Source: Myxococcales bacterium (lineage in GTDB: Bacteria > Myxococcota_A > UBA9042 > JABWCM01). Taken from it: DNA of 64,000 bases. The notes under the pieces were generated by a model, which was not told the origin of the DNA, did no database searches, and saw only the letters and a list, made by a program, of their open reading frames with translations. Location: the NCBI GenBank assembly GCA_013360285.1, contig JABWCM010000006.1, positions 11,553 through 75,552 on the forward strand, in the 5' to 3' direction. Below, one piece after another: positions 12,533-16,578 of this stretch. The position numbers and the translations under genes were made by a program. Position 1 is the stretch's first letter. Each line of letters begins with the position of its first letter.

Positions 12533-15415
12533 ATGGCTGAATTATTTTATCGTTCCTTACCCGGCTTTGGCGGCTGGGAATCCACAATCAAACAGGTTGG
12601 CGCCCAACTGCGCCCCTACTACGATTTTTTGTTCACAGCCAAAAAAGCCGCCGAAGGACGCAAATCGGTTTTGGGTTGGCGAAAAGCCACACCGGACGAG
12701 CACAACGCGTTTCACGACCGGTTCGAAAAGCGGTGGGAGTCCTCGAAATCCGACAAGCCACGGTCCAACAAACGGCGTGATCAACAACAGCGACTCAAAC
12801 CATCCGGTTATTGGATTGTCCTCGAGACTACGCAGTGGCGCCCGGACGAACCCGATGAAACCTTTGACCTGTTTATGGAAACCCCGTCGGTCTACTGTAC
12901 TCCGGAGTGTTTCCCAAACTCCGAAGTCCGGTTTCTGGAGACGGATCGGGAAGGGCGCGCTGTACTGGTCGACCGGCTTCCGGTTGCCTATGAACCAGAG
13001 CCCCAAGAAACCACTTCAGCCCCACCCAACCCGCACCAACCAAGGGGGCAATTGATTTGGCTGCGGCCCAACGTGTATGCCCTCGACTGCCAAATCCGGG
13101 CATTTCGGTCCCTGGACAACACGCCCAATCCCCGGGTAGCACCGTTGGTCCGATTGACATCGACCAAAGCCCAATGGCCGTCGTTTGCTCCCGAAGCTAT
13201 AGCCGAAGACGACTGGTATTTTCTTCGTACCAGTTCCGATGGTCGTTTGCGTGACGGTACCGACGAGCAACGTCGTTTTGTAGAAATCGCTCTTGAAACA
13301 CCCGATTTTGCGATTCTGGAAGGCCCTCCCGGATCCGGAAAAACGACGGCGATTTGTGAACTGATTACACAGGTCACCGAACGGGGCGGTCGGGTCCTGC
13401 TCGTTGCGTCAACCCATGTGGCCGTCGACAACGTGCTGGAGCGGTTGATTGAGTGGCAAGACAAACGCGATGACGAACACAAACCCGTGTTGCCGGTGCG
13501 TATTGGCGACGAAAATCGGGTGACATCGGACATGATTTTACCCTTTACGCTCAAACGCCAAAGTGCGACTTGGCTTTCGGAATTGAAGCATTTTCTCGAC
13601 GATCCGCCGGGCGTTGACCGCGGTTGTGATCGCGCTCGTGAGATTTTTCGATCGGCATTATTCGCAAAAACGGATGGTGAGGTTTCCCCCATTGTCCGAA
13701 TGATTCTTGAATTCTCCAACCTCGTGTGTGGTACGACCATTGGTATCTTACAACATCCCGCTATCAAAGCCGCCCGTCGAGACGGAGCCCCGGTTGAACC
13801 CTTTGACCTGATGATTCTCGACGAAGCCAGTAAAACTACCTTTGGTGAGTTTCTTGTGCCCGCCATGTTCGCTCGGCGGTGGGTAGTGGTGGGTGACGTC
13901 AAACAATTGTCACCCTATGTCGAAGAATCGGAATTGGCGGACAATATTCGTAAATTAGCGCCGCCTGCATTCACCCAAGGAGCGGTTTGTGCCTTTTTGG
14001 CCGCGGCGAAAGGTCATTTGAAAAAAAAGAGCCTGGTGTCGGCTACCCTGGATGATGCTCGGATCATTTATAAGGAAGCCCGCGCACGGCACGTAGACGC
14101 CGTGCTGCTGGATGATGCGGTACCGACCAAGATCTATGGGATTCCCAACGCCATTGTCGAATTGTTATATGCGGATATGGTGGTCGGCACACCTCCATGT
14201 TTACGGCAGTTTGAGCATCGGTTGCCGCAGGATCTGCAACTTTGTAGCGGGTCGGTGCCGGCGTTGTCCGATTGGCAAGCTACCCGGCGCGCCGCGGGCG
14301 TTTTGAACACCGATGACTCGACACATGAAGCGGATTGGGCATCGGAAATCGCTTGGAGACTCGTCCGGTCCTACGAACTTCGCCAAAACATTGCCGAAAA
14401 AAATCGACATCAGCGTGAAATTGAAGAACTATTTCCCAAAACCCTCAACGGGGAATTATTCGCTTCCCGCAACAGAGGTCCTCGAACCGTTCGCGATAAT
14501 GGAACTGAGCGACTCGAGACGGCGAGCGACCTACTGCGCCGCGATTTGGACACCGTTCGCCGTGTCGCCATGCCGTCGATACTCGAACTGTTGCAGGTCG
14601 GGTTTGAGCGCTTACAAGGATGGACCGAAGGTTGTGCGCTCACGGATGGACTGCCGTCCAATGTCCTGAAACAGCGGTTGGTTTCGTTGACCTTTCAGCA
14701 CCGGATGCACCCGGAACTTTCCGCCTTTCCACGGGAGCAGTTTTATCAACCGAGCGACGATCATGGTTCCCAAAACAGTGGGGTCATACAACCAATGTTT
14801 GGTCTCGAATCCCAAGCCAGTCCATCATTGTTGCGAGACGCTGATGGCATGGCGGAGCGACGCCAGTGGACGTATTCCCGATACGCTCGGCGGGCGATGT
14901 GGTTGTCCGTTGAACCCCAAAAACGTTCGGTTGGGGTCAACAACAGTAACTTAGCCGAAGTGAAAACAATTCTGGTTGAACTAAAACACTTTGTGAATTG
15001 GGCAACGACCGTTCCAAAACAGCACGAAGTCGCGATACTTACGTTTTATCGCGGACAGGAGGCGTTGTTTCGGCATCATTTGCAGCGCGAAAGTGGACAA
15101 TTCGGAAACACACGAACCTTTCGATTTGGCAACAAAAACGGCCAAGGCGCCGTCAAGGTAACCTTGTGCACGGTCGACCGGTTCCAGGGTCACGAAGCGG
15201 ATTTGGTGTTTCTGTCGTTTGTCAAAAGTGGGTCCATAGGTTTTTTAAACAGCCCCAACCGGCTCAACGTCGCGTTGACCAGGGCGCGTTATCAGTTGGT
15301 ACTTGTCGGGCACCGCGCGTTTTTTGCCTCGGATCTTTGCCGGTCCCCATTGTTGCAGCAATTGGCACAATCTCATCTTTACGCACAGGACATTCATTGG
15401 GAGGTCACAGAATGA
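12533..15415 (+). CDS. Upf1-like (DNA2/NAM7 family, AAA_11/AAA_12-type) superfamily-1 helicase with roughly 280-aa N-terminal extension and long inter-motif insertion; MkoA-like
   Basis: Walker A ILEGPPGSGKTT. Motif II MILDEASKTT. FQHRMHPELSAFPREQFY (the RMHP signature of the Upf1/DNA2 family). Motif V TVDRFQGHEADLVFLSFV. Motif VI RLNVALTRARYQLVLVG. Start set at ATG 12533 (AGGAG RBS 5 nt upstream); the track start at 12428 would overlap the predicted promoter. Confidence 0.85.
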   Translation: MAELFYRSLPGFGGWESTIKQVGAQLRPYYDFLFTAKKAAEGRKSVLGWRKATPDEHNAFHDRFEKRWESSKSDKPRSNKRRDQQQRLKPSGYWIVLETTQWRPDEPDETFDLFMETPSVYCTPECFPNSEVRFLETDREGRAVLVDRLPVAYEPEPQETTSAPPNPHQPRGQLIWLRPNVYALDCQIRAFRSLDNTPNPRVAPLVRLTSTKAQWPSFAPEAIAEDDWYFLRTSSDGRLRDGTDEQRRFVEIALETPDFAILEGPPGSGKTTAICELITQVTERGGRVLLVASTHVAVDNVLERLIEWQDKRDDEHKPVLPVRIGDENRVTSDMILPFTLKRQSATWLSELKHFLDDPPGVDRGCDRAREIFRSALFAKTDGEVSPIVRMILEFSNLVCGTTIGILQHPAIKAARRDGAPVEPFDLMILDEASKTTFGEFLVPAMFARRWVVVGDVKQLSPYVEESELADNIRKLAPPAFTQGAVCAFLAAAKGHLKKKSLVSATLDDARIIYKEARARHVDAVLLDDAVPTKIYGIPNAIVELLYADMVVGTPPCLRQFEHRLPQDLQLCSGSVPALSDWQATRRAAGVLNTDDSTHEADWASEIAWRLVRSYELRQNIAEKNRHQREIEELFPKTLNGELFASRNRGPRTVRDNGTERLETASDLLRRDLDTVRRVAMPSILELLQVGFERLQGWTEGCALTDGLPSNVLKQRLVSLTFQHRMHPELSAFPREQFYQPSDDHGSQNSGVIQPMFGLESQASPSLLRDADGMAERRQWTYSRYARRAMWLSVEPQKRSVGVNNSNLAEVKTILVELKHFVNWATTVPKQHEVAILTFYRGQEALFRHHLQRESGQFGNTRTFRFGNKNGQGAVKVTLCTVDRFQGHEADLVFLSFVKSGSIGFLNSPNRLNVALTRARYQLVLVGHRAFFASDLCRSPLLQQLAQSHLYAQDIHWEVTE

Positions 15416-16578
15416 TTCATTTAAACCGTACCGTTACCGTAAATACCTTCGACGTTCAGGGAACCGTAGCTCGTGGACAGGATCGACCCGAATTTCTGGC
15501 GGTGGCGTGCCTGGCCGCGGACCTGGATCGACCGATAGACGGCCGAGATATCACTCGACAACTCCTCGGCAGCCTCCCCGAAGCCATCGGCTGGCGAGTA
15601 CTCGATCGGGCGGTCACCATGGGGCTTCTGGAGTGGGATCCAGCAGCAAGAGTCGCAACGCTTTCAGAATCCGGACGTTTCATGTTGGAGCAGGGGCAGG
15701 TCTTGGTTCCCGAAGAAGGGGTGTGGCGGTTTTATTTTGTGGACGACCCGCTCATTGACAACCCCGTGATACATGTAGAGCGCATAGAGACCCCGAACGC
15801 CAAGGAGGAGCGCGACAAAGTGTATAAACGTGATCGTTCTAATCCGCCCGCGCAAGGAGCCCCCATCCCTAGACTGATCACAGATTCTATCGGCTCGGCG
15901 TCGCTGTCTCTGGTGACACAAAATGGGTTTGAGTTGCGCGAATTAGGCAAGGAAGGAGCGATGGGATCCACCTCCAAGCTCCAACTGTCCCTGGAGTGGG
16001 AACGTGATAAATTACCGGTGGTCTCGCTCAAGGGAAGTCTCGGTAAGCCGGACGAACAATCGGCAATGAACGTCGAGCAACGGCTTCCCATGCCCAATGA
16101 ACTGGCCTCCATGATCTATGAGCAGTGTTGGATATGGCTTGTTTCCAACGCAACAGGAATTTCCGAGCGCGAGCTTGCGGATCGGGTCAGTCACGCCAAA
16201 CGACCCGTTGTACCAACGGCGTTTGCGAACCAAGCCGTCGAATCCCTTAGCTCCCAGCGAACAAATTTGGCGGTGCCATCGGGCAAACTGGGAATCCTTG
16301 GGATCTTCGACAAAACCACCCTTCGGGATCTCGAACTTGTACCTCGCACACCTGACGACGCGCAGCAATGGGCTGAATGGCTTCAATGGGAATCCCTAGA
16401 TCGCTACGTGGTGCCTCAATCCATTGTGGACCTTTCCGCAACAGTTGATCAACGTTTTCCTTTTCACGTCGTTCAATTACCCGATCATTCCAAATTGACC
16501 AGGCGCGCTTTGTCACAACCGCGGGACAAAACCGCCCGTTTTTTGTTAACCCCCTATGATCTCGGACTCTGGAGTTAA
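15411..16578 (+). CDS. Hypothetical protein (389 aa), translationally coupled between helicase and PLD nuclease genes
   Basis: ATG 15411 overlaps the helicase stop (ATGA at 15411-15415). It ends 3 nt before the next gene. No recognisable motif. The track ORF 14998..16578 is an in-frame upstream extension overlapping the helicase. Confidence 0.7.

What the first reader, a model, noticed from the sequence alone, without database searches (positions are those of the whole stretch)
15411..16578. 389-aa protein of unknown function embedded between helicase and nuclease
It is translationally coupled on both sides, so it is almost certainly co-expressed and stoichiometrically linked with the helicase and PLD proteins. 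I could find no motif in it (no P-loop, no nuclease signature, no transmembrane helix). Canonical two-gene Mokosh-type loci have no such component. It may be an adaptor or sensor subunit, or a new effector.
Basis: inference. Interest (0 to 1): 0.65.

Follow-up and report, generated by a model that had tools for sequence, protein, structure and literature searches.

The report
Adaptor subunit of Mokosh-like nuclease operon
The unknown 388-residue protein is a real, conserved middle subunit of a widespread helicase–X–nuclease cassette related to the Mokosh anti-phage system. Its front end is the piece that Mokosh normally carries fused to its nuclease, and the rest has no recognisable fold.

Summary
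The ORF is real: 15412..16578, 388 aa. It overlaps the helicase stop (ATGA) and ends 3 nt before the PLD start. It has no Pfam, NCBIfam, PADLOC or PDB-sequence match, no TM helix and no P-loop, HKD or HEPN motif.

It defines a family of about 660 representative clusters, all about 370-410 aa. Every locus examined has an Upf1-like helicase directly upstream. All but one have a two-HKD PLD downstream; the exception has a HEPN protein instead. dN/dS is 0.15.

Most bacterial copies end with an RtcR-like CARF-sigma54 activator gene and carry a sigma54 promoter with paired upstream dyads before the helicase. Probable archaeal copies have a CARF-like wHTH gene nearby instead.

Profile comparison shows that X residues ~19-122 (wHTH plus a 'VPEE...D' hairpin) are homologous to the N-terminal module of genuine Mokosh MkoB. 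The match (prob 78%, E 1.8e-5) is as strong as the PLD-PLD match between the same families. Residues 123-388 fold confidently in AlphaFold2 but match nothing.

Best reading: a non-catalytic adaptor that couples helicase to nuclease in an inducible, split Mokosh-like system. This is a new variant of a known kind.

The parts
12380..12416 (+). Two 16-bp dyads (TGGACCTTTTGTGCCA at 12380-12395, TGGCAAAAAAATTCCG at 12401-12416) 21 bp apart. They are the likely upstream activator sites for the CARF-sigma54 activator.
   Evidence: Pairs of TGGC-N8-GCCA dyads spaced 20-21 bp lie at about -150 and -128 from the helicase start in L002, L003, L005, L008, L011, L015 and L016, at the same position as in the window. 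Their function is inferred.
12481..12496 (+). Sigma54-type -24/-12 promoter element TGGCATGGATGGTGCA, 37 nt upstream of the helicase start codon.
   Evidence: Found. An equivalent element lies 10-90 nt upstream of the helicase in 13 of 18 loci that carry the activator gene. Background is about 3% per locus, giving binomial P about 1e-16. It is absent in L010 and L014, which lack the activator. No sigma70-like promoter was found on the + strand in 11700-20400.
12533..15415 (+). SF1 Upf1-like helicase, 960 aa. The real start is ATG 12533, not the GTG 12428 of the mechanical ORF. It has a 240-aa N-terminal region of unknown function and large insertions.
   Evidence: Pfam AAA_11/AAA_12 and PADLOC MkoA at 255 bits, partial. 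Homologue alignments begin at residue ~36 of the long ORF. AGGAG lies before ATG 12533. Walker A is GPPGSGKT and motif II is DEAS. hhalign against the genuine MkoA helicase core gives prob 99.9%.
15412..16578 (+). X, the finding: a 388-aa acidic protein. Residues 1-125 form a beta-hairpin, a winged helix and a 'VLVPEEGxWRF..DDPL' hairpin (MkoB-N-like module). Residues 126-388 form a beta-rich domain, an alpha/beta domain and a helical domain ending in the conserved tail FLLxPxDLGLWS, with no known relative.
16582..18111 (+). PLD-family nuclease, 509 aa, with two intact HxKxxxxD motifs (HAKFLVTD, HAKAILSD) and a ~150-aa C-terminal extension.
   Evidence: Pfam PLDc_2 with two stretches, and PADLOC DrmC and MkoB hits over the PLD part only. 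The motifs were read in the translation. It is conserved downstream of X in 16 of 16 genome loci that have flank.
18108..19697 (+). RtcR-like CARF - sigma54 AAA+ - Fis-HTH enhancer-binding protein. Its start overlaps the PLD stop (ATGA).
   Evidence: Pfam Sigma54_activat and HTH_8, with a weak Csm6 CARF match. PADLOC RtcR_PspF1--CARF_AAA_HTH scores 2e-132 over the full length. The NCBIfam RtcR score of 195.8 bits is below the 650 cut-off. The junction was read. It is present after the PLD in 13 of 15 genome loci with flank and on 3 plasmids.

Best explanation
X is the non-catalytic adaptor subunit of a three-protein machine made of an Upf1-like helicase, X and a PLD nuclease. This machine is a split, inducible relative of the Mokosh type I anti-phage system.

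X's N-terminal module (winged helix flanked by beta-hairpins, with the invariant PEE...D motif) is the same module that genuine MkoB carries at the N-terminus of its PLD nuclease. In this cassette the module sits on its own polypeptide. It is joined to a family-specific C-terminal body of about 265 residues, and the nuclease has become a self-contained two-HKD enzyme.

The proposed mechanism has three steps:
1. The RtcR-like CARF-sigma54 activator encoded at the end of the operon senses an infection or RNA-damage signal. [quoted passage not shown]
2. The activator binds the paired dyads upstream and fires the sigma54 promoter. This induces helicase, X, PLD and itself, a positive feedback loop.
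3. X bridges helicase and PLD so that ATP-driven translocation on RNA or ssDNA is coupled to cleavage.

What is shown: gene order and coupling, conservation and purifying selection, promoter and dyad motifs, domain homologies, intact catalytic motifs in the partners, and the absence of catalytic signatures in X.

What is inferred: physical complex formation, which face of X binds which partner, the ligand of the CARF domain, the nucleic-acid target, and the anti-phage role.
For: 1. Obligate association. A helicase lies directly upstream of X in 17 of 17 genome loci with flank, and a PLD lies directly downstream in 16 of 16. The same holds for distant subfamilies and plasmid copies.
2. Coupling. 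The helicase/X junction is an ATGA overlap, the X/PLD junction is a 3-nt gap, and the PLD/regulator junction is an ATGA overlap.
3. Homology of X 19-122 to MkoB 44-146. hhalign gives prob 78%, E 1.8e-5 and score 49.6 over 98 columns (43.6% with the narrower profile). Reversed and shuffled controls score 12-18 with prob <=0.2%. The undisputed PLD-PLD match between the same two family alignments scores 48.7, prob 75%. Highly conserved residues of the two families fall in the same alignment columns: X L84, S85, G88, P100, E101, D112 against MkoB L, T111, G114, P, E, D136. L030, the source of the MkoB sequence, is a genuine Mokosh type I locus: MkoA 894 bits and MkoB 296 bits.
4. Exchangeable effector. 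In L021 the PLD is replaced by a 161-aa HEPN protein with an RNYIAH motif, behind an X-like protein. This is what one expects of an adaptor.
5. No catalytic signature. Residues conserved across the family are mostly W, G, P, L and F. The only conserved charged residues are R6, R25, E101, D112 and D383.
6. X is acidic, with median pI 5.6, and the wHTH module has median pI 6.7. This fits protein-protein contact better than nucleic-acid binding.
7. Literature. In the related CnuH/CnuE pairs, a wHTH fused to the effector is modelled as docking on the helicase insertion (PMC11090510). Nuclease-NTPase defence systems generally co-purify as complexes (bioRxiv 10.1101/2025.07.10.664194).
8. Regulation. 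See the sigma54 promoter statistics, the dyads, the absence of both in loci without the activator, and the CARF-like wHTH genes next to probable archaeal copies.
9. Accessory and mobile character. The cassette is on three plasmids, one conjugative and one next to cas1/cas2. In Pectobacterium it is inserted between guaA and an IS. X is 84% identical between Pseudomonas and Pectobacterium.
Against: - No direct evidence of a complex. Multimer modelling was not available.
- The hhalign probability of 78% is good but not decisive, and any two winged helices share some similarity.
- Two thirds of X (residues 123-388) has no detectable relative in the PDB or BFVD and no match to MkoB, MkoA, the helicase or the PLD. 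Its role is therefore pure inference, and a new enzymatic or sensing activity cannot be excluded.
- The conserved C-terminal tail motif is retained in the HEPN variant, so it is not PLD-specific.
- Anti-phage activity has never been tested for this cassette.
- A housekeeping RNA-quality-control role under an RtcR-like regulator is possible.
Confidence: 0.5

Rival explanations
1. X is primarily a nucleic-acid sensor. Its winged helix, and perhaps the beta-rich domain, would bind a specific RNA or DNA feature of the invader and recruit or license the helicase and PLD. This would make X a targeting subunit rather than a passive bridge.
For: The only structural match is to DNA-binding winged-helix regulators (MarR, PadR, Zur) over ~70 residues, with Foldseek prob 0.99-1.0 and E ~0.05-0.1. 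R62 and R66 in the presumed recognition helix are conserved in 65-72% of the broad family. The rest of the system acts on nucleic acids.
Against: X is acidic overall (median net charge about -7.6), and the wHTH module is neutral to acidic (median pI 6.7; 4.96 in the window copy). The most conserved residues lie in the hairpins flanking the wHTH (PEE...D), not in the recognition helix. The Foldseek E-values are weak.
Confidence: 0.2
2. X is a safety or inhibitory subunit with an antitoxin-like role. It would hold the two-HKD PLD inactive until the helicase detects its substrate and releases it, as proposed for HamB/HamA in Hachiman.
For: The tight translational coupling implies fixed stoichiometry with a potentially self-toxic nuclease. 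The PLD here is a complete pseudo-dimer with two intact HKD motifs, so it needs no partner for catalysis. Degenerate loci lose the helicase (IS insertion, L010) or fuse and delete X and PLD together (L028), rather than losing X alone. The release mechanism is described for Hachiman (PMC12278908).
Against: There is no direct evidence. The same X family also pairs with a HEPN effector, which would require inhibiting two unrelated folds. This idea is compatible with the adaptor model and hard to separate from it computationally.
Confidence: 0.15
3. X is a new enzyme or effector whose C-terminal 265 residues form a new catalytic fold.
For: Residues 96-388 are predicted with confidence (pLDDT 87.9) yet match nothing in the PDB or BFVD. 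A few charged residues are conserved (E101, D112, D383; H121 in the close subfamily).
Against: Across 183 full-length members, the residues conserved in the C-terminal part are almost all aromatic, Gly, Pro or Leu (W240, G297, F299, W320, W323, F349), which are structural in character. E101 and D112 lie in the module shared with MkoB, which already has its own nuclease. Two dedicated enzymes flank X.
Confidence: 0.08
4. X is a transcription factor, a wHTH repressor of the operon comparable to BrxR or CapW in other defence islands.
For: It has a winged-helix fold. Low-quality full-length Foldseek alignments to CapW and BrxR appear in the list.
Against: Those alignments have prob 0.07-0.21 and rmsd >17 A. 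The operon already has a dedicated sigma54 activator with its own HTH and matching dyads. X sits in the middle of the operon, translationally coupled to enzymes. Its wHTH is homologous to one fused to a nuclease in MkoB. The protein is acidic.
Confidence: 0.05

Closest known systems
Mokosh type I (MkoA + MkoB; Millman et al. 2022, bioRxiv 10.1101/2022.05.11.491447)
   Same: It has an Upf1-like COG1112-type SF1 helicase followed by a PLD-family nuclease in one operon. The helicase core is homologous (hhalign 99.9%; PADLOC MkoA 255 bits). The PLD domain is homologous. The MkoB N-terminal module is present, on X.
   Different: The helicase has no serine/threonine kinase domain. The MkoB N-module is on a separate 388-aa protein that carries an extra 265-residue body with no counterpart in MkoB. 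The nuclease has two HKD domains and a C-terminal extension, where MkoB has a coiled coil plus one PLD domain. There is a fourth gene, a CARF-sigma54 activator, and a sigma54 promoter. Scores on the MkoA and MkoB models are partial: 255 against 894 bits and 63 against 296 bits.
CnuH/CnuE modules of CoCoNuT systems, especially type III-C (Bell et al. 2024, PMC11090510)
   Same: It has an Upf1-like helicase with large insertions, followed by a protein with an 'elongated wHTH' that carries or recruits a variable nuclease (HEPN, Vsr or 2xPLD). These modules are frequently associated with RtcR-like CARF-sigma54 regulators, and the system is predicted to target RNA. The HEPN-for-PLD swap seen in L021 mirrors the effector variability of CnuE.
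   Different: No McrB/McrC (CnuB/CnuC) genes are nearby. The wHTH module is not fused to the effector. The regulator is at the 3' end of the operon rather than the 5' end. Direct sequence comparison with CnuE could not be made, because the relevant supplement sheets are truncated.
RtcR-RtcBA RNA repair regulon
   Same: The regulator has the CARF - sigma54 AAA+ - HTH architecture, and the target promoter is sigma54-type with upstream sites.
   Different: It is not an RtcR orthologue: the NCBIfam score is 195.8 bits against a cut-off of 650, and it belongs to the 'RtcR_PspF1' group. No rtcA or rtcB is present. The regulated genes are a helicase, X and a nuclease, and the regulator lies inside the operon it presumably controls.
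Eukaryotic Upf1-family helicase + nuclease pathways (Armitage/MOV10L1 with the PLD nuclease Zucchini; Upf1 with Upf2/Upf3 adaptors and SMG6)
   Same: The logic is the same: an Upf1-like helicase works with a PLD or other endonuclease through non-catalytic adaptor proteins. This comparison rests on my own knowledge and on Millman 2022.
   Different: No sequence or fold relationship of X to any eukaryotic adaptor was found. This is an analogy only.

Membership tests
Mokosh type I | Upf1-like (COG1112) SF1 RNA helicase gene | tested here: met
   Pfam AAA_11/AAA_12. PADLOC MkoA models score 4.6e-76 and 7.8e-49. hhalign against the genuine MkoA helicase core gives prob 99.9%.
Mokosh type I | Serine/threonine kinase domain fused to the helicase (MkoA) | tested here: not met
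   There is no Pkinase hit in the 960-aa helicase. Genuine MkoA (L030) has Pkinase at residues 18-209. A separate kinase gene at 7735-9900 is not conserved in related loci.
Mokosh type I | PLD-family nuclease with an intact HKD motif encoded next to the helicase | tested here: met
   Two HxKxxxxD motifs, PLDc_2 and PADLOC MkoB at 6.3e-18 over the PLD part only. It is separated from the helicase by X.
Mokosh type I | MkoB architecture: N-terminal wHTH module, coiled coil and PLD in one polypeptide, in a two-gene system | tested here: not met
   The PLD protein starts its PLD domain at residue ~40 and has no N-module. The N-module homologue is on X. The cassette has three core genes plus a regulator.
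Mokosh type I | Protection against phage that depends on helicase ATP-binding and PLD active sites | not testable with these tools
   This needs plaque assays with the cloned cassette.
CoCoNuT (type II/III) | McrB-like GTPase (CnuB) and McrC-like (CnuC) genes with coiled coils in the operon | tested here: not met
   Pfam scans of all genes from 7735 to 23457 show no McrB or McrC. None appears in the called genes of the related loci.
CoCoNuT (type II/III) | CnuH helicase followed by CnuE (elongated wHTH fused to a nuclease) | tested here: inconclusive
   A helicase followed by a wHTH protein followed by a nuclease is present, but the wHTH and nuclease are split. No CnuE sequence could be obtained for a direct comparison.
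RtcR (NCBIfam NF038308 equivalog) | Score above the curated cut-off and adjacency to rtcBA | tested here: not met
   195.8 bits against a cut-off of 650. There is no RtcA or RtcB in the window neighbourhood.
CARF-sigma54 enhancer-binding proteins (RtcR_PspF1 group) | CARF-like N-domain, sigma54-interaction AAA+ domain and Fis-type HTH, with a sigma54 promoter at the target | tested here: met
   PADLOC PDLC01994 scores 2e-132 over the full length. Pfam Sigma54_activat and HTH_8 hit, with a weak Csm6 CARF match.
Winged helix-turn-helix (MarR/PadR-like fold) | Three-helix bundle plus beta-hairpin wing | tested here: met
   The AF2 model has H26-38, H44-52, H57-69, E73-76/E81-84 and H86-93. Foldseek PDB hits to MarR, PadR and Zur cover ~70 residues with rmsd 2-3.6 A and prob 0.99-1.0, but E is only ~0.05-0.2.

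The most novel reading that the evidence does not exclude
The helicase-X-PLD trio may be a distinct, cross-domain (bacteria and probably archaea) RNA-surveillance immune complex. In this reading the fold-orphan C-terminal body of X is the specific trigger sensor, or the element that reports back to the CARF regulator, in the way RtcA/RtcB bind the RtcR CARF domain. Expression would be wired to an RNA-damage alarm through CARF regulators: sigma54-type in bacteria and wHTH-type in archaea. That would make it a prokaryotic counterpart of Upf1 + adaptor + endonuclease pathways, with a new protein fold at its centre.
Probability: 0.2. Interest if true: 0.8.

Novelty: new variant of a known kind. 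Interest (0 to 1): 0.55.

Why it matters
- Annotation. Mokosh is one of the commoner anti-phage systems, yet its mechanism is unknown and type I resisted purification (bioRxiv 10.1101/2025.07.10.664194). This cassette is a natural 'dissection' of Mokosh. The N-terminal module of MkoB is on its own polypeptide, the nuclease is a self-sufficient two-HKD enzyme, and the kinase is absent. Automatic tools would probably call the locus Mokosh type I or miss it, and would ignore X, because no library holds a model for it.
- Experiment. The split offers a cleaner system for asking what the MkoB N-module does and how an Upf1-like helicase is coupled to a PLD nuclease.
- Regulation. The consistent pairing with CARF-type transcription regulators, together with a recognisable sigma54 promoter and enhancer, gives a directly testable case of a defence-like nuclease system induced by a CARF-sensed signal.
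- Structure. X residues 123-388 are a confident AlphaFold2 prediction with no structural relative found, so they are a candidate new fold.

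Tried and rejected
- Sequence libraries for X. Pfam (including all 50 aligned members at E<=1), NCBIfam, PADLOC and PDB sequences gave nothing.
- UniRef name. 'Helicase XPB/Ssl2 N-terminal domain' is given for homologue P0013, but no Pfam scan reproduced it, so I did not use it.
- Search for other architectures that carry the C-terminal part. Only the same family was found.
- P0123. This 463-aa protein looked like a natural X-PLD fusion. Its locus shows an internal deletion that joins X residues 1-261 to the second half of the PLD, so it is a degenerate copy and not a Rosetta-stone fusion.
- CnuE sequences from the CoCoNuT supplement. The type II/III sheets are truncated in the held copy.
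- hhalign of X against the helicase, the PLD, MkoA and the MkoB middle region gave no signal.
- Plasmid hit H5 is only a helicase fragment truncated by IS26.
- The upstream kinase (7735-9900) and the DUF4258-like ORF (11891-12361) were considered as system parts. I rejected both because they are not conserved in related loci.
- A single sigma54-like match in the window is not significant on its own: 30 matches were found against 34 expected. Only the positional conservation across loci makes it so.

Full report
**Observation**

The ORF exists. In the frame that ends at TAA 16576-16578, the sensible start is ATG 15412-15414, which gives 388 aa.

The start overlaps the stop of the upstream helicase (ATGA, TGA 15413-15415) and is preceded by GGGAGG. 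The downstream PLD gene starts 3 nt after the stop, with a GGAG inside the end of X. The PLD stop and the next gene overlap again as ATGA.

X has no Walker A, HKD or HEPN motif and no hydrophobic stretch compatible with a membrane helix. It has no match in Pfam, NCBIfam, PADLOC or PDB sequences.

**It is a real, selected gene**

A word-indexed search found 73 clusters of full-length homologues at 35-49% identity. An exhaustive HMM search found 660 representative clusters at E<=1e-3. Apart from fragments and three longer outliers, those listed are 370-420 aa long.

Between the Pseudomonas nabeulensis and Pectobacterium copies, dN/dS is 0.15 for X. The values for helicase, PLD and regulator are 0.10, 0.13 and 0.10. 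The AlphaFold2 model built on 50 homologues has mean pLDDT 91.7.

**Context**

The window genes around X are as follows:
- an SF1 Upf1-like helicase (AAA_11/AAA_12, with a partial MkoA match)
- X
- a PLD-family protein with two intact HxKxxxxD motifs
- an RtcR-like CARF-sigma54 AAA+-HTH activator

A scan of one genome per species gave 18 loci from Myxococcota, Alpha-, Beta- and Gammaproteobacteria, Latescibacterota and Planctomycetota. The counts are:
- The helicase lies directly upstream of X in all 17 loci with upstream flank.
- The PLD lies directly downstream in all 16 loci with downstream flank.
- The sigma54 activator follows in 13 of 15 loci.

Distant subfamily members keep the same order. 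Three plasmids carry the four-gene cassette: Vibrio rumoiensis, V. aerogenes (beside cas1/cas2), and a conjugative Pontibrevibacter plasmid. In Pectobacterium the cassette sits between guaA and an IS.

Homologue alignments and an AGGAG place the true helicase start at ATG 12533, not at the GTG 12428 of the mechanical ORF. A sigma54-type element, TGGCATGGATGGTGCA (12481-12496), lies 37 nt upstream of that start.

One such match in 64 kb is not significant on its own. However, an equivalent element lies 10-90 nt upstream of the helicase in 13 of 18 loci that carry the activator. The background is about 3% per locus, giving P about 1e-16. The two Latescibacterota loci without the activator have none.

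About 100 bp further upstream, most loci have two TGGC-N8-GCCA dyads 20-21 bp apart. In the window these are at 12380-12395 and 12401-12416. This arrangement is typical of enhancer sites. No sigma70-like promoter was detected on the + strand across the operon.

In contigs that are probably archaeal (an Orc1/Cdc6 gene is adjacent), the trio lacks a sigma54 activator. Instead it has a nearby gene with a CARF-like domain (HFX_2341_N, with weak Csa3_N and APE2256 matches) plus a winged helix. A CARF-type transcription regulator therefore accompanies the trio in most of the bacterial loci examined and in the two probable archaeal contexts.

**What X is**

The model shows this layout:
- residues 2-23: an N-terminal beta-hairpin
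- residues 26-95: a winged helix
- residues 97-125: a second hairpin carrying the most conserved motif, VLVPEEGxWRF..DDPL
- residues 140-160: a flexible linker
- then a beta-rich domain, an alpha/beta domain, and a helical domain ending in the conserved tail FLLxPxDLGLWS

Foldseek against the PDB matched only the winged helix, to MarR/PadR/Zur-type domains with prob ~0.99 and E ~0.05-0.2. A second model of residues 96-388 (pLDDT 87.9) matched nothing in the PDB or BFVD: the best E-values were 0.13 and 0.033, with prob mostly below 0.3 (one short 0.69 hit).

Across 183 full-length members, the conserved positions are mostly W, G, P, L and F. The conserved charged residues are R6, R25, E101, D112 and D383. 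X is acidic, with median pI 5.6, and the wHTH module has median pI 6.7.

**Link to Mokosh**

A plasmid search with the helicase found a genuine Mokosh type I locus in Nostoc linckia (L030). It has a kinase-helicase MkoA (894 bits on the PADLOC model) and MkoB (296 bits).

A profile of MkoB homologues aligned to the X family over X residues 19-122 and MkoB residues 44-146. The result was prob 78%, E 1.8e-5 and score 49.6. With the narrower X profile the probability was 43.6%. Reversed or column-shuffled MkoB profiles score 12-18 with prob <=0.2%.

For calibration, the undoubted PLD-PLD homology between the window-type PLD alignment and the same MkoB alignment scores 48.7, prob 75%. The alignment extends beyond the winged helix into the PEE...D hairpin. 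Highly conserved residues of both families coincide in it: L84, S85, G88, P100, E101, D112 in X against L, T111, G114, P, E, D136 in MkoB.

So the N-terminal third of X is the module that MkoB carries fused, through a coiled coil, to a single PLD domain. X residues 123-388 have no counterpart in MkoB, MkoA, the helicase or the PLD. A search with that part found only the same family.

**Effector exchange**

In one locus (L021) an X-like protein of 508 aa is followed by a 161-aa protein with a canonical HEPN motif (RNYIAH), not by a PLD. This parallels the CnuH/CnuE modules of CoCoNuT systems. There an Upf1-like helicase is followed by an 'elongated wHTH' fused to HEPN, Vsr or two PLD domains. 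RtcR-like CARF regulators are frequent in those systems, and AF2 multimer models place the wHTH on the helicase insertion (PMC11090510). No McrBC genes are present here, so this is not a CoCoNuT.

**Most likely mechanism**

X is a non-catalytic adaptor that couples the helicase to the nuclease in a split, inducible Mokosh-like system. The CARF-sigma54 activator senses a signal. [quoted passage not shown] The activator then fires the sigma54 promoter, which also raises its own level. The helicase-X-PLD complex then degrades RNA or ssDNA. The HEPN alternative effector and the RtcR-like regulator favour RNA as the target.

Shown: architecture, conservation, promoter motifs, homologies, and catalytic motifs in the partners. 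Inferred: the complex, the interfaces, the ligand, the target and the defence role.

Rivals are a targeting sensor, a safety or inhibitor subunit, a new enzyme, and a transcription factor. I rate the adaptor model at about 0.5.

**Novelty and limits**

The kind is known: an Upf1-like helicase plus a PLD nuclease, as in Mokosh and CnuH/CnuE. The separate X subunit with its orphan 265-residue body, the two-HKD nuclease, the loss of the kinase, and the built-in CARF-sigma54 circuit make this a new variant of that kind. None of the libraries I queried holds a model for X (the newest being NCBIfam of June 2026), and the paper searches I ran found no description of it.

Noticed in passing
window 12428-12533: The mechanical helicase ORF starts at GTG 12428. 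Homologue alignments, an AGGAG and the position of the sigma54 promoter (12481-12496, inside that extension) show that the real start is ATG 12533.
   Followed up: yes
window 11891-12361 (+): A 156-aa ORF lies immediately upstream of the enhancer dyads. It has a weak DUF4258 (RelE-like toxin clan) match, E 0.007, below the cut-off. The CoCoNuT paper notes RelE/BrnT-like toxins just upstream of RtcR-associated systems. This ORF has no homologue in the 18 related loci.
   Followed up: partly
window 7735-9900 (+): A 721-aa Ser/Thr protein kinase matches PADLOC PD-T4-6, mad6 and the kinase part of MkoA (E ~1e-51). It lies 2.6 kb upstream and is separated from the cassette by a sigma70-r4 protein (10321-11775). 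It is not conserved next to the cassette elsewhere, so I did not count it as part of the system.
   Followed up: partly
window 20224-25735 (+): A Fur-family regulator with a long N-terminal extension (322 aa) is followed by two tandem 749-aa catalase-peroxidase (KatG-type) genes. This looks like a duplicated oxidative-stress module directly downstream of the cassette.
   Followed up: no
L021 3671-8333: A variant cassette: helicase, an X-like protein of 508 aa with an extra C-terminal ~150 residues, and a 161-aa HEPN protein (RNYIAH) in place of the PLD. A response-regulator-type sigma54 activator lies on the opposite strand.
   Followed up: partly
L022-L027 (e.g. L022 3055-10639; L025 5376-11723): In probable archaeal contigs (Orc1/Cdc6 adjacent), the helicase-X-PLD trio is accompanied by a CARF-like (HFX_2341_N / Csa3_N) winged-helix gene instead of the sigma54 activator. 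L022 also has a NYN RNase and a radical SAM gene between them. L025 lies near a PglZ (BREX) gene and an integrase.
   Followed up: partly
L010 5986-10004; L028 6001-7392: These are decaying copies. In L010 the helicase is split by an IS1-like transposase. In L028 an internal deletion fuses X residues 1-261 to the second half of the PLD.
   Followed up: yes
L011 vs L012: The cassettes of Pseudomonas nabeulensis and Pectobacterium sp. PL152 are 84% identical in X, with dS only ~0.5, although the hosts belong to different orders. This suggests recent horizontal transfer. In Pectobacterium the cassette sits between guaA and an IS.
   Followed up: partly
window 12533-13250 and 17630-18108: The first ~240 residues of the helicase and the last ~150 residues of the PLD have no domain assignment. 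The PLD extension is missing in the two Latescibacterota loci, which also lack the activator (PLD of about 400-425 aa in L010 and L014).
   Followed up: no
P0013 (Stigmatella homologue): UniRef labels this homologue 'Helicase XPB/Ssl2 N-terminal domain-containing'. No Pfam scan of 50 family members reproduced any such hit.
   Followed up: yes
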